Position numbers and translations under genes: made by a program
Part shown: positions 1 to 20,000 of the stretch, in pieces
Numbering within the stretch: position 1 is the first letter of the stretch
Layout: each line of letters starts with the position of its first letter
Source of the DNA: Rozella allomycis CSF55
Lineage: Eukaryota
Assembly: GCA_000442015.1 (NCBI GenBank)
Contig: KE561209.1
Span: forward strand, 366,390-386,389
Length of the DNA stretch: 20,000 nt
Direction: 5' to 3'
Notes under the pieces: generated by a model
Database searches by the model: none
Seen by the model: the letters and a program-made list of their open reading frames with translations, nothing else
What the model was told of the DNA's origin: nothing

Positions 1-837
1 AAAGTGTCCTTTACATAGTCTTCTTTGATGTTTGATTGTTGAAATAGCGGAAACAGAGAGCGAAAAGATTTAAAAATTTCATCTCCCAGATACGCCGGCG
101 GTACATAATGCGATTAAAGAGTTGGTAAACTTGTTGAATTTTAAAATTTTTTTTATANAGTTTTGTCACTTTTCACAATATATAACAATAACTTGAATTT
201 TATTCCCACGTATTCTTGTACTACTCTTTTTTGTATGACTCTATTCCAAGGCGTAACGTTGCTAACCTTTCAGATTGAAAATCACCTTCATTTCCTTTCT
301 ACACAGAATTATTGTTAGTCCGTGAAACCCCAATAGGCATAGCATCGAACATAAATATGTACAAAATAAAAATATAATATATACTACCTTGAAATCTCCA
401 AAGCGGTGTTGAAAAAAGGCGATGAAAGTAGATTATTTCAACTCTAACGACAATTTCAGTATTTTTTTTTTATATTTTAAATATATACAGTTATTTGAAT
501 AATCGTTTTTANTTGATCAATAAAAGGTTGAAATATTAAGAAGAATTCTTTTTTCTGATTTAATGGTGGAAAAATAACTCGAAAAAGGCTGTCGCACCGA
601 CACAATCTCAGATTGGAAAAGATGAGTCGTATAAAGAATGTTAATAATCAATAATAAATAAATTAGTTTATCTAAATAATTAATTTTTTATTGGTCGATT
701 CCAATTCCAAACTCCCTATCCCACGGAACATATGATTCCATAATATCTCATCAACAACTCAAACTGTAAGGATACCCTTACATAAGCATGTAACTCTTAG
801 ATTTATTTCTTACACTTTAACAAGACTAACTATTAAC

Positions 838-2355
838 ATGGATTTACAAGATTACTTTGTTGCACAGACCCAAGCATTGAATCAAATATCAGAAAAGCTT
901 TTGGCAGTGAGTGCTGGAAGATCGGGAATGCCTAAAATTAGTGAGCCAGAATATTTCTACGGAAATCCAAAGAAACTTGCCGCTTTCCTGAGACAATTAG
1001 AGTTTGTGTTTGAATTGAATGAACAAATGTATAACACTGATAACAAGAAGATTATTTATGCAGCTTCATATTGTCGAGGACCTGTGAGCAATTGGTTAGA
1101 GTCATATTGGCTCATTGATGAAACATTAAGAACATACGAAGATTTTGTATTACAATTAAAGAGACAAATTGGATTAAGAGAAAATAAAGTAGCTATTCAG
1201 CAAGAGATAATGAAAATGAAGCAAGGGAGCAAGTCTGTGAGTGCCTTAATCGCTGAGTTTCAACGACTTGCACCTCTTTCAGGTTTTAATGATGAAGCCA
1301 TTCAAGCATTTGTATTTAAGTCCCTTAACCGAGATATTCAGCAAACTCTTGAGTACCACAATGAACCCAGAAATCTCCAAGAATTTTATAATTTACTTTT
1401 ATTGATTGAGGAAAGAAAATTGATAAATAAAATGTATTCTTTTCAAAAAACAACGAAACTGAATGATGAGTATCAGAATAATCTTGAACCAACTGAAACA
1501 TCAACATCAGAACCAATGATAATTGACGGAACATTCAACAAATTCTCTAAATTAACAGTGGAGGGTCGTGAAAAATGTAAGAGAGAAGGGCGTTGTTTTC
1601 GCTGCGGAGCGAAAGGACACTTAGCAAAAAATTGTACGACTAATTCTAATAGTTCTATAAAGAACAATTTATCTACGTACCATCTTGTTTTTCCTATTTC
1701 TTTTATGAATGATATTTGCACTCATGTTCTCATTGATTCGGGCGCCTCAACTTCGTTTATTGATAAAGATTTCGCTCAACACTACAGTATTCCGTCATCC
1801 ATTAGGTCGCATAGTGAAGAAATTGAAACCATTGATGGACAACGGTTGAAAATTGATCGACAATGTGAACATTTAACATTTGTTATAAATGAACAAGCAT
1901 ATCAGCATACTTTTAAATTAATTGGAAGTCCACACTTCAATATTATTTTAGGTATGGATTGGTTAGTTAAAACCAATCCCAATATTGATTGGAAACATCG
2001 AACCATGAATATAAATCTGGAAACTAATTGTAGAAATATTTCATGTAATAAGCCTAATGATTCTATATTATCCAATTCAAAAACATCAAATACTTATCAA
2101 ATGCATAAAGCAAAGAAATTAATTCATTCTATTAACTCCATCTTAAAAACGGATATTGATATTCATTCAAATCTCCCAGAAATTTATCATGAATATCTTG
2201 ATGTATTTAGTGAAGAAAATGCGTCCCAATCACCAGAGCATTCAGAATTTGATATTACAATTGAATTATTGAAAGACACTAAACCACCGTTTGGTCCAAT
2301 ATACAATTTATCACAAGACAAATCAATCAAGAGCCTTAAAGATATATTTAGATGA
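838..2355 (+). CDS. Retrotransposon Gag (capsid + CCHC zinc knuckle) fused in frame to aspartic protease; ends after a frameshift at the start of RT
   Basis: 505-aa open ORF with PEYFYGNPKKLAAFL capsid-like start, CX2CX4HX4C, DSGA protease motif, IILGMDWL and PPFGPIYNLS (RT N-terminus). Confidence 0.88.
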   Translation: MDLQDYFVAQTQALNQISEKLLAVSAGRSGMPKISEPEYFYGNPKKLAAFLRQLEFVFELNEQMYNTDNKKIIYAASYCRGPVSNWLESYWLIDETLRTYEDFVLQLKRQIGLRENKVAIQQEIMKMKQGSKSVSALIAEFQRLAPLSGFNDEAIQAFVFKSLNRDIQQTLEYHNEPRNLQEFYNLLLLIEERKLINKMYSFQKTTKLNDEYQNNLEPTETSTSEPMIIDGTFNKFSKLTVEGREKCKREGRCFRCGAKGHLAKNCTTNSNSSIKNNLSTYHLVFPISFMNDICTHVLIDSGASTSFIDKDFAQHYSIPSSIRSHSEEIETIDGQRLKIDRQCEHLTFVINEQAYQHTFKLIGSPHFNIILGMDWLVKTNPNIDWKHRTMNINLETNCRNISCNKPNDSILSNSKTSNTYQMHKAKKLIHSINSILKTDIDIHSNLPEIYHEYLDVFSEENASQSPEHSEFDITIELLKDTKPPFGPIYNLSQDKSIKSLKDIFR

Positions 2356-3297
2356 AAATCTTAAAAAGAAATTTATTGTTGCGAGTAAATCTCCTGCAGC
2401 TTCACCAATTATGTTTGTAAAATAGAAAGATAAATCTTTGAGACTTGTTGTAGATTACAGAAAATTGAATAATATAACCGTGAAAAATAGATATCCAATA
2501 CCACTTATTCAAAATTTAATAGATAACTTAAAAGGCTCAAAAATACTTACAAAATTGGATTTAAGAGGTGCTTGTAATTTAATAAGAGTTAAAAAATCAG
2601 ATCAATGGAAAACAGCATTTCGTACAAAGTATGGTCAATTTCAATACCAAGTAATGCCATTCGGATTATGTAACGCACCGTCCATTTTTCAAAATATGAT
2701 GAATAGTATTTTTCATGATTTATTAGATCAGTTTGTTGTTATTTATTTGGATGATATTTTGATATTTTCTAAAAATCTAGAAGAACATTCTCAACATGTT
2801 AAAATAGTTTTGCAAAAATTGAGAGAACATAATCTTTTTGCAAAACTGGGAAAGTGGTTTTTCCATGTCACAGAGGTTGATTTGTTAGGTTTTGATATTA
2901 ATACTAATGGTATTTCGATGCATAAGAATAAAGTTCAGTCAATTGAAAAATGGGAAGAACCAAAAAATATTAAACAGTTGCAAAGATTTTTGGGAGTCAC
3001 AAATTATAACAGAAAATTTATTTCTAATTACCCTAAAATTGCTGTACCATTGACCAATTTATTGAAGAAAAATATTGGAAAATGTAATTGGACAAATGAG
3101 TGTAAAAATGCATTTAAATTATTAAAATCAAAATTTATTAAAATGCCAATTTTGCAATTTCCAGATATGACTAAACCATTCATTGTTCAAACGAATGCTT
3201 CGGATTTTGCTCTGGGTGGCGTATTATTACAAACTGATTCTGAAAACATTCTACATCCAGTTGCTTAGCATTCCCGGAAATTCTCGTCTGCAGAGCT
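2322..3297 (+). pseudogene. Disabled pol (reverse transcriptase + partial RNase H)
   Basis: ATCA tandem duplication at 2322-2329 shifts frame; removing it restores QDKSRALKIYLDENLKKKF. In-frame TAG at 2423-2425 (FVK*KD) and 3266-3268 (HPVA*HSRKF). RNase H TDASD reads TNASD (AAT 3194-3196). Confidence 0.85.
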
Positions 3298-3307
3298 NNN
3301 NNNNNNN
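3298..3307. other. Assembly gap (10 N)
   Basis: Run of N; retroelement homology does not resume afterwards. Confidence 0.98.
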
Positions 3308-4366
3308 TAAAAATTTGAATAACTTTCTAAAATCTTTATACAAATATTTCCTGAGAAATTCAGTACTGTCCATTTATTATACCAAGTGTGGTGAAGGACT
3401 ATATTTGAATATGAATATTTTGTTGTTTTTAAATCCATATAAAATGAAGCAAGCGATAATAATTGGAGTATTGCATGTTACCGCAGGCGCAATCATGCAA
3501 AGAATTTGTAGATTAAAGTAAAAAGGATTCAATTTTCATTGAAATATTCAACGATACCATGTTTCGTATCTTATCTGCACAAACCTTTTATCTCGCGTAT
3601 ATTTTTTCGTAATAAGATATTCGAGCTGTGTATTAATACCTCATTGGTAAATGCGACATTGCTTTCCCGTCACTGAAAACAACTTCCAATATTGTCTCTT
3701 TTTTTATAATTTATTTACTGAGACATGGGAAACATGCCGAGTAAATATCTTTTTGACATTATATTTAAACGAGTATTTGCTCAGCCTGTTTCCCGTGTCT
3801 AAATAGCTCATTGAGGGGAGATTTTCTTTTTTTACCCAACTATCAACAAACAATTCTTTGATCATATGAAGGATTTAGTTATTCAGATGACATATCCGCG
3901 GAATGAAAAAGAAAATGGGACAAGCAAGAGAAATTATAATTAGGTGACCGAGAAAGAAATTTCTGATATTCCAGATCTCTTAGTGTTATAAGCACTCATA
4001 GTCCGCAACGGCATGGTTAGGTTCCTTGTTCAATGGGTATGGATTCCACTGGAACTTTAATAGAAAATGTTGAGTTTGCAGATGATACCCTGGTTAATAT
4101 CACTTGAATATAGTAATGCGCAGCCAAGTATCATGCGGAATGATAACTCGCTTATTATATTTTGGGTATTATTTTTCGCAGGGATATAATGTCCTTTCTA
4201 ATAACTGGAGGCATTTCCATAATTTGTAAAGAATGGAATAAAGAAATGCAGAATCACCTCAAAGTGAATCCTTTCCTTCTTTAATGTATGAAAGTGAAGA
4301 CCACAGGTTTGGATTACCTCCCTTAAAAAAGCAATTTTATTTTTAGGATTCATTATGTGCACAACT

Positions 4367-10485: not shown

Positions 10486-13315
10486 ATGACTGTAAAGGAA
10501 GCCTCGTTATTTCCTAAAACCCAGAGAAGACATAATATAGATGTTGATAACGTGACAATATTGGATAATTTTGTAATATTTTTTAGTAAATCACAAAGGG
10601 AACACTGTCTAATCTGTTTGATATTGCAAAGAGGGGGCCGTTTGTTGGGAATGGAATAGTATCGGCAGAAAACAAGGCCAAATATCCAAATCAATGTGGG
10701 GCTAAATTTGAGTTTAAAATATACCAGTATTATATTACGTACTACGCGGAGACACCTTTGAAACCTGATGTATGGTTGAGAGGCGATCATTGTTATTTTA
10801 GGATTATGGTAAGCGGTACATAGTTTAGAGATTAGAATCCTTCATTTAAATATAAAGCTACGTATGAAGAATGCTGGAAGATGTTTCAATTTACTTCATT
10901 GTCTTTTGAATATTTGAAGGAAAACAAGGGCAAGTCTTTTGATTGGAAGAATTATTTTGAGACGGTAAGTCATTTTTGGAATGTTTAAAAGCTTATTATA
11001 AAGTTAGAGTTTAAAAGCCAAGAGTCTTTGATTGATTTTTTGTTTGAAGTTTCATCATTTTTTATGAATCAGTTGAGTCAAATGGCAGAGTATGAAAGAG
11101 ACTGTGGCGATCATATTGTTGTAAAATTGATGCAAAAAAGTCTTCAAACAAAATCCAATCAATTTAAGGGCTTGTTGGATTTAGAGATTGACCTCCCCCT
11201 TAAGCCCCTTGTAGCGTACACGAAAGCATTAAAGCCACAATGTATACCTCCATTGATAACGATTGTATTTTAAATGAGTTTTCGTAACAAAGATTAATGA
11301 TTTGAATTATCGTAATGGTTATTTCAAGTGCCCTGCATGCTATCAATCGTTTGACACTAGTGTAGATGGTGTTATTGATAATATTCTTTTACCGCATATA
11401 CAACAGCACATGAAATCACTTTGCGGCGATTTGAAAACGGAAGAGGAGTGGCTTGGTATCTACAATTCTTCGGCGGCAAAAATAAAGAAGCATGAAAAAT
11501 GTGACAAGGAGCATTATTTTTCACGATCTTTTCCCAGCAGAAATGTGATCAAGTCAAACTTTGGGGTAATGTGATGTTTTTTTGATGTTAGTTAATCAAA
11601 GGTGTGAAAGAAGAAAAGGTTTGTTTTATAGAGCCAGAAGTGGAGGAGATTAAAGTGAAAGAAGAGGTTTATTCAGAATTTGATGATTTTGTGGATATTC
11701 CCCTGATGGAGCCTTTAAATAATGTTGAAAATAGGGTATTTTATTTTGATTTAAAAGATAGCCTGTACGTGAGACCAGGGTTAATAATCAACCTTTGAAG
11801 AAGAAAAGGGCCAAGAGCGACAAGCCTGAATCGTCTAAAATAAATAATGCGGATTTAAAGCAAGAAAATGAAGACTATAGATTAGAGATAGAAATTCCAT
11901 CGATGAATTTGGAAATAAGTGAAATGACCCTTGATGAAGAGAGCGAAGAAGAAAAAGTTTTTAAAAAACGCAGAATTAGAAATAGAAAAGACAAAAGACG
12001 AAGAAACAGAAAAGAAAAAGAATTTCTTCCAGAGATTTTGACGTTTGCGAGAACCCTTGCGAATGATCTTTTGACTTTTTTGAAAACATTTGGCAATGAC
12101 AATCGAAGTGTTCCATTTGAAGGAAGCAAAGAAAAGGAGCAAATTTGTTTTAATGTTATGTGTTATTTCGGTCTGGGGATTGTAGAAGCAAAGGAGGTGT
12201 ATGACACTGTATTGAAATCTGATTATGAATTGATTGAAGAGTTTATAACGCTCGCAGAAGATTGTGGAATATTGGAAGAGATTTCTTTATTTTGTTTGAG
12301 ACCAAAAAGAGTAAAAACTATTTCCGAAATTTCCAATAAATTTTCTTTGGATGAATTGGCAGAAAAGATTGGAAGAAGCAACAAAAATAATGTAGAAATG
12401 AAAACAAGACAATCTAGAAATAAAAGAAATAAACAAATTAATCAAAATAGCACGAAGAGTGAAAATGTTTCAACTGAAGATTTAAGGAAGGCTATTGAGA
12501 TTTATAAGAAGAAATTTAACGTTGAGATTTCTATTGAAGATCTTTTTGAAATTTTAGAAAATTTAAACGAAGCAGAAAAAGAAGCAGAAGTAGAAGTAGA
12601 AGAAGTAAAGGGAAAGAGCTTTAAAGTAAATGAAGAAAACTTTGATGTAAATGAAAACTTTAAAGCAAATGGAGAAATCGTTGAAGAGATGCGAGAAAAC
12701 TTTAAAGACAAGAGGGAAGAAGAAGAAATACCAAAGGAAGAGAGGAGAGAAATCTTTGAAACAAAGGCAGAAGAAAGAGAAGACGAAGATTTAGAATTGG
12801 AAGAAACAAAAATTGAAGATGAAAAAAATGATCTGGAAATTGAAATCTTTGATGAAAATAAAAAAATAGATCTACATTTGGCATTGGATGATTTCATTAT
12901 TGAAGACGATCCAGAAGATCTTTTAATTGAAGACCCTGAACCTCTAAGGGACCCTGAACCTCAACTTTTCTTAGAACCTTCGAGGGACCCTGAACCTCAA
13001 ATATCTACAAGGTCTAAGCCTCCACTATTAATAGAAACATCAAAATCCAAAGTAGAAAATTTGATTGACGTTGTGGAAATAGAAGCGGACAGTTTTGCAT
13101 CAATTTTGTCAGAATATGAAAATTCAAACGCCCCTCTAAGAAATGTTTCAAATCAAAATTCAAATTCTTTTTGGAGTTGCAAAACATGCAATAAAATGCG
13201 TCAAGGTGCAAAATGTTTATTTTGTGGAAGTTTATGGGAATGTCCCAAATGTCTTTTAAATCACTCGATGAATTCTTCATGTCCGAAAAATCAGAAAATA
13301 ATTTACATTGAATAA
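10486..13315 (+). CDS. About 889-aa putative chromatin protein: N-terminal DNMT1-RFD/RFTS-like domain, C2H2-like finger, long acidic/basic region, C-terminal Cys-rich fingers
   Basis: Introns 10573-10598 (26), 10809-10835 (27), 10965-10991 (27), 11265-11292 (28), 11566-11591 (26) and 11736-11761 (26) join the fragments into one frame. The domain call is by eye from YITYY..PDVWLRGDHCYFRIMNPSFKYKATY..SFFMNQL. The start codon is uncertain. Confidence 0.7.
12932..13000 (+). repeat. Imperfect coding repeat GACCCTGAACCTC x3 (DPEP motifs)
   Basis: Three copies of gaccctgaacctc encoding EDPEPLRDPEPQLFLEPSRDPEPQ. Confidence 0.85.
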
Positions 13316-13382
13316 AGGGTAATTTTAAAGACTAAAAGATTTAAAATTTATAATCTAAAATATTAAAGATTCTTTTATTTAT

Positions 13383-16341
13383 TTAATTCCACCATTGGAA
13401 ATCTTTCGATGATGGCAACGGGAGAATTCTAACAGGCTCATCAAAATCTATCAAGGAAATTTCATTTGTGATTTTTCCAATTTCACTCTTTTCAGAATTC
13501 ATGCTTCTTCTTAATTCATTTCGAAGTCTTTCTTTCTTTTCCTTGTCTATCAATAAAACCTTAATTAAAAATGTCGACTTTACAGGCTTATGATCCGATA
13601 GTCTCAATTCTGCTCTTGAATACCCTTGTTGCACAATCTTTATTAAATACATCAATCCTCTCTTACATTCTGCCCCTTAAATAAAATGCGATCAGTCCAC
13701 GCTGGAATTCTCTGCTTCTCGCTAGTGTCGTATTCATCAGTCCCATTGTCATATTTGTACGTTGGATTAAAATTGATTTCTCCTTCAATAAACCCTTTAA
13801 ATGCATTTCCCTGTTTTAATTGATTATTTAACTTTCATCATGTCAAACATTGCTTACCTGGTCCTGGCGAAATAGTTCACTCAAATTTCCTTTTGATATC
13901 AAGTCTTTGGTTTGCCAGATTCCTAAATCAATTCGATAATTAAAATCTCCCAGCCAAATCACATTGTCGTGCACTTCAATTTTCTTTCCATGCTTAAACA
14001 CCAAGCCATCGGATATCGTCATGTAATCTCTATTCCTTTCCTCCACATTTCCATGTCCAGCTGCCAAATGCGCACAAATAAAACAAAACGACGAATCATA
14101 ATAATCAAATCTAATGCCAATGCCACCTTTATTCCCTGCCATCCCCTTTAACCCGGTCTATCATCTTATTCATACACACTTACTTTCTTTATTCCCACCT
14201 CTACATTTCGAAGATTTTTTATTATTGATAACTTTGCAAAAATACACAATGACGCGCCAACTAGCTGTCCGGATGTTACAAGGGTATATTTTTCACCATC
14301 CGCATTCAGTGACTTTTGTATTTGTCTTTCCCACAAAAGTCGCTTATCTGGATCGGTCATCATGATCTTTCTTTGAAACATCCTTGAATCTTACCTGCGC
14401 TGGAGTCAATTCCACAATCTCCTGAAATCCAATCACATACAAATCAGGATGGCTTTCTAAAACAGCAATCAAAAAATAGACTACCAGATGATAACCAGGG
14501 TGAAAGGCTTTCATGATTTATTGAAGGGCTCTTTCCATTCACATTCCACGTAGCAACAAAGACCGAAAGTGGAAAGTATGTTGAATACTCATTAATGCGA
14601 TTGTCCAATTCAATTCTAATCGAATTCAAAATAGGATTAAAAATAAAAACCGACGAATTTGGAATATTTCCTAAAAGTATATCAATGGTAGTCTGCTTAG
14701 ATTTATCAGTAAAATTGTTAACGTAAAATCGTTGTGCTGATTTTTTAGCGTCATCCATGAGTCCTGTAACTTATTTTAAAAACTCATTACCGGCAATGGT
14801 GCGCTTTCCAGTCCGCGTAAATCCAGACTTTAGGGCACCCGTCCCAGTGTATATTCGACTCAACTCATCGCCATTGTCCGCCCAAATGTCATTGAAGACT
14901 GGATGATCACTAAACTTGGCAGGAATTAACTTTAAACTCAAAAAATTATCTAAAACATATTTAACAATTGCCGTTTGCACAACATTTGTCCTTTTTAAAA
15001 ATACAGACAGGGGTACCTGTCCAAACAATCCAAGCAATTCACTCTCATAACGCCCCTTTGCATCATTAAAAGTTCATTTGTCTTCAAATCAATCACAGAG
15101 TACATTTGCTGCTGCAAAGCTACTTCTATCATTGTTAGCAAAACGCTGAGTCGATCGTAGCTTGTTCCTTTCATGTGATAGTGAAAATCAAACGCCGTTC
15201 TAGTTATCGGCATTCCACAGTTTTCTGTTTGAATTCTATATGCATTTCCCAACAATTCTTCTGCGTTCCCATCTCTCTGGGACAAAAGATCAATGATATG
15301 CACATTATCGTATTGATTTATTAAGTCTTCGAAATGACGATCAAAAGCGGGCTGTGTTGCCGCTATCGATCTGGTTATCTGAATTTTATGACCGCCAACC
15401 TGCAACCCTTGTTGTTCCCAGAATACAAAAATTAGAGGCAAAGTTATACTTTACCTGGCACTGATCCTCTTAAAATCACAAAAGAAAACAATTGGTCTGG
15501 TTGATGCTGGAAAACAACCTCCGTCTCCACAAAATTCGCAACATTCCCATCATCGTCAATCCCTCGTACATTGTACCTAGTCCCAGCTCTTTTGCTACTA
15601 AGCCTAGAAAAAACGGCTAAAAATGATTTTTCTCCGTTTATTTTTAAATCACAAACTTCAACAAATCCTTGAATGGCCAATACAAACAATGCACTTGAAT
15701 CTATATATCTTTTCTCTTCTTCCGCCAATTGGGCTCTAAATTTTATTATTTGTTTTAAAATAGATTTGTTCCACACCTTCATTGTAGTTTATTTTTTGTA
15801 TTACGAATCTATCGTCAAATGTTTCGAATAGGTGTCCCTGGGACCTGGTTCTGTTGCAAGAATTTAACGTGAGGTCAAATGAAGGCGAGAAATAAAATGA
15901 TCCCGAACTCATGTATTTTATCAAATCTTGGCAGGGATGAATAATCTTTTGTTCTTCATTTTGAATGGAATCAAAAGACACCATATCATATTTAGTGGAA
16001 TTAATCGAAATACATTCAACAGCCGTGATTCTAAATAATGGGTGTGACAAAAATGATCCAACTCTTTCTACGCTCTGTATACTGATTAAAAAATCATCTA
16101 GCAATAACTTTCATCCACATTATTCACCTTCATTAATTTTAACCATCCCCAGAATTCCGAAACATACTTTTGAGCCTGTAGGTACCTTTATGTTGTCTGT
16201 CACACAAAGCTCGGCATTTACACATTGTATATTTGTTTTATATGGTTTTATAGTTAGCAAAAATGGATTCGATGGGTCAGTACAATGAATAGACACTACT
16301 CTCTGTTTACCACCTTCAATTGTAATGTAGAAATTGGACAT
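13383..16341 (-). CDS. Synaptojanin-like phosphoinositide phosphatase (Sac1 domain + inositol 5-phosphatase; Inp52/Inp53 family), about 893 aa
   Basis: RAGTRYNVRGIDDDGNVANFVETE, RGSVPVFWEQ, RVNCLDCLDRTN, GFQEIVEL, GNKGG, WLGDFNYRI, PTYKYD, PAWTDRIL, SDHKPV. Introns 16098-16127, 15777-15804, 15426-15454 (GT-TG), 14991-15016, 14764-14790, 14457-14484, 14367-14394, 14158-14183, 13832-13857, 13638-13666. Confidence 0.95.
15426..15454 (-). other. Putative non-canonical GT-TG intron, 29 nt
   Basis: GTAAAGTATAACTTTGCCTCTAATTTTTG; removal restores the Sac1 motif RGSVPVFWEQ. Confidence 0.7.
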
Positions 16342-16480
16342 AACCCTGCGCCACCCCTCTTACTATTAAATAGAAATAAAAATAGATCATATTAATGTTA
16401 ATGTAAATTACTAAATAACAAAAAATGTTTATTCTAGTCATGTACTATTTACTAAAATTTTTGCAGTAAAACCCTAGTTC

Positions 16481-17044
16481 ATGAGAAAAGATTTGAAAGA
16501 ACAAGCTATAGCTGAAATCGGACACTTGCTGTTAAAAGGGTGGACTATGACAGATAAAAACTGTTCAATTTGTTCGGTAATATATTTATGTAACATAAAG
16601 TTTCGACTGTCCTTATGCGTGAAAAAGGAAGCGAAAAAACGAAATGCTGTTTCTGTGATTTAAAAAATCAAGAGTCTTCAGCTTTTCATAACATGGTCGA
16701 AAATGTCACGGCCAGCTGTGAGGTTTTGAATGAAATTTGTCCAACTTGTGAAGGAACGGTATAATCACAAATTTTAAGTTTACAAGAACTCCCTTTTAAA
16801 AAATGATGATAAAAGTTTACTTTGCTTGCAATGCAACCAGAAATATTACCTTGAAATTCCGAATAAACCACTTGATCAAGAAAACGAGTCCAGTGAAATT
16901 AATTCCATTCAGACTGAGGTTTTAAGAAACTTAGCTAATGCCCTCAAAGCTTCGAGAGGACTTCTTGACAAGAACCGTGCATTAGGATTCGATCTAATTA
17001 ATGAACTATCATTAACCATACATAAAGTAATAAGCATTGAATAA
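16481..17044 (+). CDS. SSSCA1/ZNRD2 (Auto_anti-p27)-like protein with two zinc-ribbon repeats, about 168 aa
   Basis: IGHLLLKGWTMTDKNCSICSTVLMREK..CCFC and VLNEICPTC..LL..CLQC. Introns 16577-16605 (29, GT-CG; alternative 16572-16600) and 16759-16786 (28). Confidence 0.8.
16577..16605 (+). other. Putative non-canonical GT-CG intron, 29 nt
   Basis: GTAATATATTTATGTAACATAAAGTTTCG; removal keeps CxxC and enters the conserved TVLM..CCFC frame. Confidence 0.55.
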
Positions 17045-17050
17045 AAAAGA

Positions 17051-17066
17051 GTTTTATTAATAAAAC
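17051..17066. terminator. Perfect 16-bp palindrome with AATAAA on both strands, in the 23-bp spacer between convergent genes
   Basis: GTTTTATTAATAAAAC is its own reverse complement; flanking stops at 17044 (+) and 17068 (-). Confidence 0.65.
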
Positions 17067-17067
17067 G

Positions 17068-19324
17068 CTATGCTAAATACTTGTAAAATTGCCTATTTAA
17101 GATATTCAAAGTTTGATACTTGTTTTCTTCATCTCTTTCAATGAATTCTTTTTCAATTAGATTTTCAATCCGCTTTTTAATAACGGAAGGCTCTGGGTGG
17201 AACCTTGATGAAAGGATTTTAATCACTGAAGAGACAAGAATTGTGTGTTCAACTTTACGTCTTGATTTCATTATCCTCACTATGGCTGCATCAATCGTGA
17301 CGTTAAGGATACATACATATTATATGATAGAACTAATAAACAACAAAAAGGATATTGATATCTTCGATCTTCCTCGACTTGTTCAATTGAATGTTCTGCG
17401 TTGGGCACCTCAGAGTTCGATGGTTTTATTTGCAGTAAAGGAACCTTAAACTTGAAAGCTTTGTGTTTAAAAGAATTGTTAAAAGTAAAAATATCAGAAT
17501 TCCTTAAAAAATTGTCGCCGGGGGTCTTTTGTAGAATCTTAAATCTTCCCAGTGCTAGGGAAAGTATATGCCGTTCCATTTCATGAAGAGTTATATTCAA
17601 GGATTTTGAAATTTGATCAGCATTTAATGTTTCCGCCTCCTGAAATAACAAAAGTATAAACATTTGGATTGTAGAGACGTTGACTTCATGTCGACTCTCT
17701 AAAAAGTTTATTACAAGATCCGCTTGACCCTTTCAAGTGAATTTATGAAATTTACTAAATTAAATTGCCAGTTTAGTCTTCTGCCATTGTGTTTGAGCAA
17801 GTATGATTTCTCAAATACATCCAACTGTTCTTTAAGCTTTAAAGGTAAATTAATCGAGGATTTAGTAGATTTGAGAGGCCAGAAGCTCGTTGTCAATATG
17901 ATTGGTTGTAGCGACTTTTCTTTGTAATCTGCGGATAAGGCTGCGTCATTGATCATTCCCTCCATTTTCTGGGTGTATTGAAGGCCACATTCACTCTTTT
18001 TTAATTGGTATAAATGATAGATACTTTTAATCTCACCACGAAACTTTGAATTAACGAAATATCTTTTCTCTGAATCAGCTGCTTTGCCAATAGTTTCCGA
18101 AACAAAAGATCAAAAACATCCTTATCGGGTATAAAACGAAAAATAATAATTAATTTATCAAAAATATTTTCGAATTCTTCTATATTTTCTCTGAATATTT
18201 TGTCTAGATACGAAATCAGGTGTGAACATGCATTAGACTCATTCTTTATGCAGTCTCCAAACGCCTATCGATAAAACAGTGCTAAAGTACCTGATTCATA
18301 CATTTCCATATATCTTTATTGTTTACAAAGCACTCTATTTGAACAAATGATAGATACTCATAAAAATTTATCATTTCATTCATCCAATTACTTTTTTCCG
18401 CTGTAAAATTAACAATAAATGTTCGAACGTAACTATTTAGAACCTCCATACAGCCACAAGGGTTGAATAAATTGTAAAACAACGTCAGGCATTCATAGTC
18501 TTTGTGTGCTAGCCTTTTCGAAATTCCTCCATTCAACTCGCATATCTTAGAGGAGGGTTGTTTGATAAAGATATCGTAAACTAAATCAATAAAGTTCTTT
18601 TGCGAAATTTCAGGAAAAAACATGACAATCCTTTCTTGTTCCCCTTCAAGTCGTGCTTTAACTTTCGCCAAGTACATTTTAGTATCATCGAATTTCATCA
18701 AAATTTCCTGTTCTTGAACAAAATAATCTCTTGTTTTCTCCATGAAATAGTCGTAGTCTATGGACTCCAACTCGTTCATCATTGTAAATATTTTAGACAA
18801 TGTGTCACGCTCAATTATATTCCCATTTCTTTCTTTATTTATTTCTTCAATTAAAGATCCATTTATTTTTGTTAATTGATTGCTAATGACAGTCTCCTTG
18901 AAGCAATCCAAGGCTAATTCCATGGTCTCCCTTATTCTCCTTTGTCTACAATACCCATTATTCATGTAAAGGCACACATCCGATACCATAGACACTGATA
19001 GCTTAAAGTTTTGCCATTCCTTTGACAAGTGTGCCAAATACTGATATCCTTGAAAAATTTCAATCCTCGCACCGATTTCTGAACACTTCAACATGAAGTA
19101 TTCTTCTATCTTTCCATAAAATACTTCTGCTTCTGACATTAAGCATAAGTTATAGCAATATCGATATAATTTTTCAAACGAAAGTTGAGATGTTTTTTGC
19201 CCAAATATTTTTTCAAAGGAGCTTACCAAACAATCCATCATATCTTTGGAAGACAGATTTTCATTATTCTACATTTTTTCTTACATATAGCGCTTACAAA
19301 TCTTGAAAATGGTTTTAGCCCCAT
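17068..19324 (-). CDS. Cullin, most similar by eye to CUL3 (divergent), about 686 aa
   Basis: LSFEKLYRYCYNL, FRFIPDKDVF, LKSECGLQYTQKMEGMIND, HNGRRLNWQ, neddylation motif IDAAIVRIMKSRR, IKKRIENLIEKEFIERD..YKYLA. Introns 19269-19297, 18265-18290, 17996-18024, 17730-17755, 17297-17355 (AT-AC), 17093-17119. Confidence 0.93.
17297..17355 (-). other. U12-type (minor spliceosome) AT-AC intron, 59 nt
   Basis: 5' ATATCCTTT, branch site TCCTTAAC (17302-17309, minus strand), 3' AC; phase-2 removal gives EEDRRYQ-IDAAIVRIMK. Confidence 0.93.
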
Positions 19325-19591
19325 TTTGGAATTTACTTAAAAGACAAACTAAAATCTTCAAAATTCAAACTTCGAAATATAATTATGAAAAATAATACTC
19401 GTGGCTATTTGCCGAATTTAGAACAATTAAATTCTTTTTCACGCATTAATTTTTCAGGCAGTTCATCCGGTTTTTCGTAAATTTTCTAGGTAATTTTGAA
19501 ACCGATTTTTACCTAAAACTTTGTTTCGGAAAAATCGACATTAGGAAATTTGAACTGAATTTGAACCCTTTTTTTGGAAATATCGAAAAAA

Positions 19592-19964
19592 ATGTCGCCA
19601 CCTGATTTGATACCTACCCATAAAGCTATCGCAGATAAATTCGCGTAATGTAGAAAAAGATTACTTATTCAGTGGTATAAATAGTTTAACCTTTTACAAA
19701 CGAGACGATTACGAAGCACTTCGCTTTGAGTGCCTGCGGGAAATGGACTGCGATTTGAAACCGCATAGCCAAGAATTTCGTGAGCTAGATAAAAAAGTTA
19801 AAGGTAACTTGCTAACGAAACCTCTTTCAGGTCTCGTAAGTCCACGGAAGATTGCAAATCAGACTTCCGAGTCGATTTGGGCTAGAGCGGATGCTGATGT
19901 GAGAGCAGTCGTTGATAAAGACGTTTTTGATTCTATTGCAGTCGCGGATATGGATACCAAATAA
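19592..19964 (+). CDS. Small hypothetical protein (about 105-114 aa), divergent from the cullin
   Basis: ATG at 19592 plus a 28-nt GT-AG intron (19645-19672) joins the 19743-19964 ORF frame. Possible stop-free 27-nt intron at 19804-19830. AATAAA overlaps the stop. No recognisable family. Confidence 0.55.
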
Positions 19965-20000
19965 ACATGTCTCGCTTGATTAAAGAATCGAATGAGGAAA

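What the first reader, a model, noticed from the sequence alone, without database searches (positions are those of the whole stretch)
17297..17355. AT-AC U12 minor intron retained in a miniaturised genome
Seen: ATATCCTTT...TCCTTAAC-GTCAC, and its removal exactly restores the cullin DRRYQIDAAIVRIMK motif. It is the only intron outside the 26-30 nt class and is about twice as long. Known: these are the U11/U12 consensus signals, and the minor spliceosome is absent from Dikarya and canonical microsporidia. Inference: this compact organism keeps a working minor spliceosome with its own larger minimum intron size. Standard gene predictors would mis-model this gene's C-terminus.
Basis: partly seen in the sequence, partly recalled or inferred. 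Interest (0 to 1): 0.85.

Follow-up and report, generated by a model that had tools for sequence, protein, structure and literature searches.

The report
U12-type AT-AC intron in Rozella cullin
A 59-base intron with textbook minor-spliceosome signals interrupts a cullin gene of the parasitic fungus Rozella allomycis, the public gene model misses it and so loses the protein's key regulatory site, and this suggests that a close relative of microsporidia still uses the rare second splicing machinery.

Summary
On the minus strand, 17355..17297 (59 nt) starts ATATCCTTT, carries TCCTTAAC and ends AC. The combined pattern occurs once in the window and in 0 of 200 shuffles.

Removing it joins ...DRRYQ to IDAAIVRIMK... 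in frame. Solved CUL4B and CUL3 chains align to the two flanking exons with exactly one residue between them, which is the split Gln codon. A profile of 80 homologues scores this splice at 228.2 bits. The GT-AG alternatives score 215.2 and 187.9, the public model 144.8 and the unspliced reading 113.8.

The window is Rozella allomycis CSF55. Its public protein model uses a 113-nt GT-AG intron that deletes the neddylation segment. Three DNA runs carry the segment.

Not tested: splicing itself, because no RNA holder was listed, and the minor snRNAs and proteins, because no genome is held. The "larger minimum size" idea rests on one intron. The branch motif lies unusually close to the 3' end, with the branch A at -7/-8 against a described optimum of 11-13 nt.

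This is a new member of a known kind, of moderate interest. No searchable paper pairs Rozella with U12 or minor introns.

The parts
17068..19241 (-). Cullin gene of the CUL3/CUL4 group, from ATG to the TAG stop
   Evidence: Pfam Cullin (1.6e-43, 5e-21 and 1.9e-19 on exons 1, 3 and 4) and Cullin_Nedd8 (1.1e-25 on exon 5). 100% identity to P0001, 'Cullin-domain-containing protein [Rozella allomycis CSF55]'. The PDB's best hits are CUL3 and CUL4.
18291..19241 (-). Exon 1
   Evidence: Open frame. The Pfam Cullin match starts at residue 5, so the ATG at 19241 is a better start than the internal Met used by P0001.
18265..18290 (-). Intron 1, GT-AG, 26 nt
   Evidence: Same junction as in P0001.
17996..18024 (-). 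Intron 2, GT-AG, 29 nt
   Evidence: Same junction as in P0001.
17730..17755 (-). Intron 3, GT-AG, 26 nt
   Evidence: Same junction as in P0001.
17356..17729 (-). Exon 4, ending ...VEEDRRY plus CA of the Gln codon
   Evidence: Pfam Cullin profile 531-620 of 620. It aligns to CUL4B chain 4a0l_E up to residue 661 and to CUL3 chain 8k9i_C up to residue 677.
17297..17355 (-). U12-type AT-AC intron, 59 nt, phase 2
   Evidence: If retained, the frame stops 24 codons later, before the neddylation domain.
17347..17355 (-). 5' splice site ATATCCTTT, 9 of 9 to the consensus /RTATCCTTT
   Evidence: The consensus is as quoted in PMC2846911.
17302..17309 (-). Branch-point sequence TCCTTAAC. The two candidate branch adenosines lie at -8 and -7 from the 3' junction.
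   Evidence: The consensus UCCUUAAC is as quoted in PMC2846911. Run X5 reads the first T as G.
17297..17298 (-). 3' terminal AC
17120..17296 (-). Exon 5: G of the Gln codon, then IDAAIVRIMK..., the neddylation (winged-helix) domain
   Evidence: Pfam Cullin_Nedd8 1.1e-25, profile 6-63 of 63. It aligns to 4a0l_E from residue 663 and to 8k9i_C from residue 679.
17093..17119 (-). Probable intron 5, GT-AG, 27 nt, a multiple of three with no stop codon; the public model retains it
   Evidence: The homologue profile scores 228.2 bits with it removed and 216.1 bits with it kept.
17068..17092 (-). Last exon (...QFYKYLA) and the TAG stop
17204..17316 (-). The 113-nt GT-AG 'intron' of the public model P0001, which I judge to be wrong
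   Evidence: It removes 31 residues that match Cullin_Nedd8. The P0001 C-terminus scores 144.8 bits against 228.2 for the AT-AC model.

Best explanation
Window 17355..17297 (minus strand) is a 59-nt, phase-2, U12-type AT-AC spliceosomal intron in a CUL3/CUL4-group cullin gene of Rozella allomycis.

Proposed mechanism, inferred from the known system: U11 snRNA pairs with ATATCCTTT and U12 snRNA pairs with TCCTTAAC, bulging one of its two adenosines. The U4atac/U6atac.U5 tri-snRNP then completes catalysis. The exons are joined CA|G, so the mRNA reads ...DRRYQ-IDAAIVRIMK... and encodes an intact neddylation domain.

Shown here:
- the signals;
- their improbability by chance;
- exact frame and spacing restoration against homologues and solved structures;
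- reproducibility of the DNA;
- failure of the public GT-AG model.

Inferred, not shown:
- that the transcript is spliced at these bases;
- that Rozella encodes the minor snRNAs and proteins.
For: 1. Signals. The 5' splice site matches 9 of 9 and the branch site 8 of 8 consensus positions (the consensus is from the PMC2846911 passage). The joint pattern gives 1 match, and 0 of 200 shuffles have any.

2. Need for an intron. Exon 5 is a Cullin_Nedd8 domain (1.1e-25) in a different frame from exon 4. Without splicing the frame stops.

3. Exact junction.
- CUL4B chain 4a0l_E aligns to exon 4 up to residue 661 and to exon 5 from residue 663. CUL3 chain 8k9i_C aligns up to 677 and from 679. One residue is left in each case, which is the split codon.
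- 88 of the 149 non-self representatives carry the A-A/S-IVRIMK-type motif, and all 88 have Arg at -6. The AT-AC splice reproduces that spacing.

4. Model comparison. The profile was built from 80 homologues: the first 80, by rank, of the 149 non-self representatives that are 650-850 aa long. Scores:

| Model | Bits |
|---|---|
| AT-AC, 59 nt | 228.2 |
| GT-AG, 59 nt | 215.2 |
| GT-AG, 26 nt | 187.9 |
| Public model | 144.8 |
| Unspliced | 113.8 |

5. There is no AG between the in-frame TAA at 17322-17320 and the conserved IDAA codons. A GT-AG intron therefore cannot give the conserved product.

6. The DNA is real. X4 and X6 contigs are identical across the segment, and X5 is identical apart from one base.

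7. Phylogenetic plausibility. Passages in PMC2396436 and PMC10639083 report minor snRNAs or introns in chytrids, Allomyces, zygomycete lineages and Glomeromycota.
Against: - There is no RNA evidence. No listed holder is RNA, and the one RNA run laid gave only spurious 18-24-nt matches.
- There is no evidence on U11, U12, U4atac, U6atac or the minor-specific proteins. No genome is held and the window contains no snRNA.
- Only one such intron occurs in 20 kb. The other five RTATCCTT matches are antisense to genes, lie in the retroelement, or overlap the branch site itself.
- The branch motif ends 6 nt before the exon, putting the branch A at -7/-8. The PMC3584512 passage gives an optimum of 11-13 nt.
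- Run X5 shows TCCTTAAC as GCCTTAAC in one contig at depth 7.9. This is either an error or a tolerated variant.
- The best GT-AG rival is only 13 bits worse.
Confidence: 0.8

Rival explanations
1. The segment is handled by the major spliceosome through a GT-AG intron. There are three candidates. (a) 17344-17286, 59 nt, gives ...DRRYQYPFS-IVRIMK. (b) 17301-17276, 26 nt and so in the usual size class, gives ...YPFCCLLVLSYNMYVSLT-IMK. (c) The public model's 17316-17204, 113 nt.
For: All three keep the frame open to the same stop. (b) has the modal intron length of 26 nt. (c) has a good GTATGT donor and is what an automatic pipeline chose. (a) scores only 13 bits below the AT-AC model.
Against: - Each destroys part of the conserved I-D/E-A-A-IVRIMK block, although that block is encoded intact and in frame. 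Scores are 215.2, 187.9 and 144.8 bits against 228.2.
- The donors of (a) and (b) are GTTGTT and GTCACG. In the strict ORF-joining scan, 9 of the 13 GT-AG candidates of 26 nt start GTA, and the set of about two dozen short introns that I hand-picked starts GTA almost throughout. That picking is my own judgement.
- (b) ends GAG.
- None of them explains a perfect U12 donor and branch site at this spot.
Confidence: 0.05
2. It is an AT-AC intron removed at the same bases by the major (U2-dependent) spliceosome, in an organism that has already lost the minor one.
For: No minor snRNA or protein could be looked for. The very short distance from branch site to 3' end is unlike described U12 introns. 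Microsporidia, the sister lineage, lack the minor spliceosome.
Against: ATATCCTTT plus TCCTTAAC is the U11/U12 recognition pair. Nothing would keep 17 of 17 consensus bases intact without that machinery. In the surveys read, lineages without minor snRNAs also lack such introns (PMC2846911 abstract and conclusions). From recall, not from a call: U2-type AT-AC introns carry major-type donor sequences.
Confidence: 0.07
3. The segment is not removed at all. The gene is decaying, or it makes a truncated cullin without the neddylation domain.
For: No expression data. The Rozella cullin is very divergent: the nearest non-self representatives are 32-34% identical.
Against: All the other exons are open and match the Cullin profile end to end. 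The downstream 59 residues still match Cullin_Nedd8 at 1.1e-25. That would not survive without selection on a spliced product.
Confidence: 0.04

Closest known systems
U12-type (minor, AT-AC subtype) spliceosomal introns, as described in animals, plants, Acanthamoeba, Phytophthora and early-diverging fungi
   Same: AT-AC termini, /ATATCCTTT donor, TCCTTAAC branch site close to the 3' end, no polypyrimidine tract, and a single such intron among many U2-type introns of a conserved housekeeping gene.
   Different: It is only 59 nt long. The branch adenosine lies at -7/-8 rather than at the 11-13 nt optimum. The host lineage (Rozella, Cryptomycota/Rozellomycota) is not named together with U12 or minor introns in any searchable paper.
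Blastocystis minor introns (Larue and Roy 2023, PMC10639083; passage read)
   Same: A genome with very short major introns in which the minor introns are also very short and mostly of the AT-AC subtype.
   Different: The Blastocystis minor introns have a median of 39 bp and number in the hundreds. Here there is one intron of 59 nt, about twice the local major-intron mode of 26 nt. Blastocystis is an unrelated lineage.
U2-type introns at the same cullin site in environmental eukaryotes (loci L033, L062, L063, L073)
   Same: The intron lies between the DRQxQ and [IV]DAAIVRIMK codons, within one base of the Rozella position.
   Different: They are GT-AG, in phase 0 (L033 80 nt, L062 351 nt, L063 288 nt) or phase 1 (L073 49 nt). 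None has RTATCCTT or TCCTTRAY in the 700 nt upstream. The Rozella intron is in phase 2. The organisms are unknown, and orthology of the introns is not established.

Membership tests
U12-type (minor) spliceosomal intron | 5' splice site /RTATCCTTT | tested here: met
   ATATCCTTT at 17355-17347, 9 of 9. The consensus is from the PMC2846911 passage.
U12-type (minor) spliceosomal intron | Branch-point sequence TCCTTAAC near the 3' end | tested here: met
   TCCTTAAC at 17309-17302, the only copy in the window. Joint pattern with the donor: 0 of 200 shuffles have a match.
U12-type (minor) spliceosomal intron | Distance from branch site to 3' splice site short and constrained (optimum 11-13 nt in the systems studied) | tested here: inconclusive
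   The candidate branch adenosines are at -7 and -8. This is shorter than the optimum quoted in PMC3584512. The 8-nt core motif lies within the (-40,-5) interval that PMC2846911 scans with 12-nt segments. No other Rozella U12 intron is available for comparison.
U12-type (minor) spliceosomal intron | AT-AC or GT-AG termini and no polypyrimidine tract | tested here: met
   AT...AC, with only CGTCAC after the branch motif.
U12-type (minor) spliceosomal intron | Removed from the transcript at these boundaries | not testable with these tools
   No RNA holder was listed. RNA run X9 gave no real cover. Protein homology supports the junction only indirectly.
U12-type (minor) spliceosomal intron | The organism encodes U11, U12, U4atac and U6atac snRNAs and the U11/U12-specific proteins | not testable with these tools
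   No genome is held for the window. There are no Rfam matches in the window at the gathering score or at E up to 1. No permitted query sequences were available for the proteins.
Cullin family (CUL3/CUL4 group) | Cullin repeat and homology region plus a C-terminal neddylation (winged-helix) domain with the IVRIMK lysine | tested here: met
   Pfam PF00888 on exons 1, 3 and 4, and PF10557 on exon 5. The best PDB hits are CUL3 and CUL4A/B in all three segments. Whether it is a CUL3 or a CUL4 orthologue is not resolved: exons 1 and 5 lean to CUL3 and exon 4 to CUL4.

The most novel reading that the evidence does not exclude
Rozella allomycis, on the branch closest to Microsporidia, keeps a working minor spliceosome that operates on a compacted substrate: a 59-nt intron with the branch adenosine only 7-8 nt from the 3' junction. 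This would date the microsporidian loss of U12 splicing to after the split from Rozella. It would also provide a natural near-minimal U12 intron, and show that annotation-based surveys undercount minor introns in such genomes because pipelines force GT-AG models on them.
Probability: 0.5. Interest if true: 0.6.

Novelty: new member of a known kind. Interest (0 to 1): 0.48.

Why it matters
1. Evolution. Passages read in PMC2396436, PMC2846911 and PMC6865273 count Microsporidia as one of two fungal losses of the minor spliceosome. A conserved-looking U12 intron in Rozella would place that loss after the split between Rozella and Microsporidia. It would also show that genome compaction alone did not remove the system.

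2. Annotation. The public protein lacks the neddylation lysine segment because the pipeline forced a GT-AG model. Surveys that classify annotated introns, such as the intronIC-based approach described in the PMC10639083 passages, cannot see an intron that was never annotated.

3. Mechanism. If confirmed, a 59-nt U12 intron with its branch site 7-8 nt from the acceptor would be a useful natural test of the spacing limits of U11/U12 recognition.

Tried and rejected
- Whole genome: none is held, so no search for snRNAs, proteins or further U12 introns was possible.
- Rfam on the window found nothing at gathering scores. At E up to 1 it gave three weak, irrelevant matches.
- RNA evidence: no RNA holder was listed. 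RNA run X9, laid anyway, gave only 18-24-nt fragments.
- Literature:

| Search | Result |
|---|---|
| 'Rozella' + 'U12' | 0 papers |
| 'Rozella' + 'minor intron' | 0 papers |
| 'U12-type' + 'Cryptomycota' | 0 papers |
| 'Rozella' + 'minor spliceosome' | 1 paper, on Polycomb (listing only) |
| 'U12-type' + 'cullin' | 18 papers, 15 listed; by title and abstract none concerns a U12 intron in a cullin gene (listing only) |
| Six-term search | None of the 25 listed (of 6,610) mentions Rozella |

- The main text of PMC10639083 has no 'Rozell', 'Cryptomyc' or 'microsporidia'. Its Figure 1 and FigShare tables may list Rozella. Figures and supplements could not be seen.
- Splice models rejected: the two GT-AG rivals, the public model, the unspliced reading, and a one-base-shifted AA-CA junction at 226.1 bits. 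A one-base shift to the right (TA-CG) gives the same protein, so it is excluded only by the splice-signal argument.
- The minimum-intron solver picks some implausible 19-21-nt 'introns'. It was used only to show that short-intron paths exist. It gave no path for the methyltransferase-like gene with my end coordinates.
- Close relatives: the nearest non-self representatives among 1.84 billion are 32-34% identical, so no sister-species gene model could be compared.

Full report
**What is there**

The minus strand of 17068-19241 encodes a cullin.
- Exon 1 (19241-18291) and the next two coding blocks match Pfam Cullin. The block 17295-17071 matches Cullin_Nedd8 at 1.1e-25, profile positions 6-63 of 63.
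- Exon 1 is 100% identical to P0001, which NCBI names 'Cullin-domain-containing protein [Rozella allomycis CSF55]' and UniRef names 'Cullin CUL3-like'. The window is therefore Rozella allomycis, an endoparasite usually placed as sister to Microsporidia.
- Solved structures place the protein in the CUL3/CUL4 group without deciding between the two.

**The observation**

- Minus strand 17355..17297 is 59 nt and 25% G+C. It begins ATATCCTTT, contains TCCTTAAC (17309-17302) and ends GTCAC.
- Each motif alone is not rare. RTATCCTT has 6 matches against 1.69 expected, and TCCTTAAC has 1 against 0.66 expected.
- Donor and branch site together within 20-50 nt occur once, and in 0 of 200 dinucleotide-preserving shuffles.
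- The other five RTATCCTT hits are antisense to genes, lie in the retroelement, or overlap the branch site itself.

**Why it must be an intron with these boundaries**

- Read through, exon 4 continues ...DRRYQYPFCC... and stops after 24 codons. The neddylation domain lies in another frame behind an in-frame TAA.
- Cutting at AT...AC joins CA|G and gives ...VEEDRRYQ | IDAAIVRIMK....
- Two independent checks fix the junction:
  - CUL4B chain 4a0l_E aligns to exon 4 up to residue 661 and to exon 5 from 663. CUL3 chain 8k9i_C aligns up to 677 and from 679. Exactly one residue, the split Gln codon, lies between.
  - Of the 149 non-self representatives returned for P0001, 88 carry the A-A/S-IVRIMK-type motif, and all 88 have Arg six residues upstream. 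The AT-AC splice reproduces that spacing.
- I built a profile from 80 of those representatives (the first 80, by rank, that are 650-850 aa long). It scores the C-terminal models as follows:

| Model | Bits |
|---|---|
| AT-AC, 59 nt | 228.2 |
| One-base-shifted AA-CA | 226.1 |
| GT-AG, 59 nt (17344-17286) | 215.2 |
| GT-AG, 26 nt (17301-17276) | 187.9 |
| Public model | 144.8 |
| Unspliced | 113.8 |

- No AG lies between the in-frame TAA and the conserved IDAA codons. No GT-AG intron can therefore yield the conserved product.

**The public model is wrong here**

P0001 reads ...DRRYQYPFCCLLVLSYNM and then jumps to FHPEPS.... That corresponds to a GT-AG 'intron' of 113 nt (17316-17204). It deletes 31 residues, including the IVRIMK neddylation segment.

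**The surrounding intron class**

- The gene's other introns are 26, 29 and 26 nt, with the same junctions as P0001. A probable 27-nt intron lies near the 3' end, and removing it adds 12 bits.
- In a strict ORF-joining scan of the whole window, GT-AG candidates peak at 26 nt: 13 candidates, 9 of them starting GTA, against 0-3 at neighbouring lengths. Control dinucleotide pairs show no such peak.
- Five neighbouring genes can each be read through using only GT-AG introns of at most 34 nt. These are the Sla2/HIP1R-like, Nse4-like, an unnamed gene, the synaptojanin-like and the SSSCA1-like gene. The methyltransferase-like gene gave no path with my end coordinates (gene identities).
- Short Rozella introns are already on record. 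A passage of PMC6349667 mentions introns of about 30 nt. A passage of PMC8042348 gives 29 bp as the lowest fungal median intron length in a set that includes Rozella.
- The U12 intron is therefore about twice the local norm. That is one data point and not a demonstrated size floor.

**Is the DNA real?**

- Contigs from three DNA runs span the segment.
  - X4: record covering 16765-17596, 0 differences.
  - X6: record covering 16880-17779, 0 differences.
  - X5: record covering 15559-19247, one difference.
- The X5 difference is at 17309. It changes the first T of the branch motif to G, in one contig at depth 7.9. It may be an amplification error or a tolerated variant.
- Some of these runs may be the source of the assembly and so are not independent.

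**What could not be tested**

- No RNA run holds the gene.
- No genome is held, so the minor snRNAs and proteins and any further U12 introns could not be sought.
- The window has no snRNA.
- 'A working minor spliceosome' therefore remains an inference. It rests on 17 of 17 consensus bases being intact in an otherwise well-kept, presumably essential gene.

**An atypical feature**

The branch motif is followed by only CGTCAC, so the candidate branch adenosines are at -7 and -8. The review passage in PMC3584512 gives an optimum of 11-13 nt and says that either A can be used. The only downstream AG, at +17, would break the frame. Either Rozella's machinery tolerates a compressed 3' end, or this counts mildly against the reading.

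**The same site elsewhere**

- A scan of metagenome contigs with exon 5 matched 588 stretches. Of these, 193 encode relatives, and the best 80 were kept.
- Of the 80, 75 are continuous across the site. Many may be intron-poor organisms or transcript assemblies. One is cut by the contig end.
- Four have an intron within one base of the Rozella position: L033 (80 nt, phase 0), L062 (351 nt, phase 0), L063 (288 nt, phase 0) and L073 (49 nt, phase 1).
- All four are GT-AG, and none has U12-like motifs in the 700 nt upstream.
- The site is therefore used for introns in other eukaryotes. Whether these are converted descendants of an ancestral U12 intron is open.

**Comparison with what is known**

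- The consensus signals and their meaning are textbook.
- Minor snRNAs or introns are reported in chytrids, Allomyces, zygomycete lineages and Glomeromycota. They are reported absent from Dikarya and Microsporidia (passages).
- A U12 intron in Rozella fits that distribution and refines it.
- No searchable paper holds Rozella together with 'U12' or 'minor intron', or 'U12-type' together with Cryptomycota.
- The large survey PMC10639083 does not name Rozella in its main text. It excluded introns under 30 bp and worked from annotated introns. Its figure and data tables, which I could not see, may include the species.

**Verdict**

- The identification as a U12-type AT-AC intron is well supported by sequence and homology.
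- The claims of a working minor spliceosome and a separate size minimum are untested.
- It is a new member of a known kind. It brings a concrete annotation correction and a modest evolutionary point.
- Interest is moderate.

Noticed in passing
window 17093-17119 (-): A 27-nt GT-AG segment (a multiple of three, with no stop) near the 3' end of the cullin is kept as coding in the public model. Removing it gives a canonical ...QFYKYLA end and raises the homologue-profile score from 216.1 to 228.2 bits.
   Followed up: partly
window 19139-19241 (-): The public model P0001 starts at an internal Met (MSEAEV...). An upstream ATG at 19241 adds 34 residues, and the Pfam Cullin match begins at residue 5 of this longer exon 1.
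   Followed up: partly
window 16572-16605 (+), SSSCA1/p27-like gene (16478-17044): Keeping the first zinc-ribbon CxxC (CSIC) and continuing into TVLMREK... needs a 29-nt intron, 16577-16605, that starts GTAATA but ends CG. The canonical 29-nt GT-AG alternative, 16572-16600, turns the second Cys into Phe. The piece upstream matches Pfam Auto_anti-p27 positions 2-21 of 40. This may be a non-canonical acceptor or a base error.
   Followed up: partly
window 17309: Run X5 reads C instead of A on the plus strand. That changes the first T of the U12 branch motif to G. It is seen in one contig at depth 7.9, and not in X4 or X6.
   Followed up: no
window 12985-18453, several clusters: Run X4 carries alternative contigs at about one third of the depth. 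They have clustered substitutions, for example at 17951-18002 and 18399-18453 inside the cullin. This suggests a second haplotype or strain. No variant is among the rows the tool listed for the U12 intron, and 8 further rows were not shown.
   Followed up: no
window 19228-20000: High-copy repeat. Contig depth is 10 to more than 100 times that of the rest of the window in X4, X5 and X6, with many loose ends and joints.
   Followed up: no
window 736-3521 (+): Ty3/gypsy-type retroelement: gag with a CCHC knuckle, a protease-like region, and RVT_1 plus RNase H. It is broken by a 10-N run at 3298-3307.
   Followed up: partly
L033, L062, L063, L073: Environmental CUL4-like genes have U2-type GT-AG introns (80, 351, 288 and 49 nt) within one base of the Rozella U12 intron position.
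   Followed up: partly
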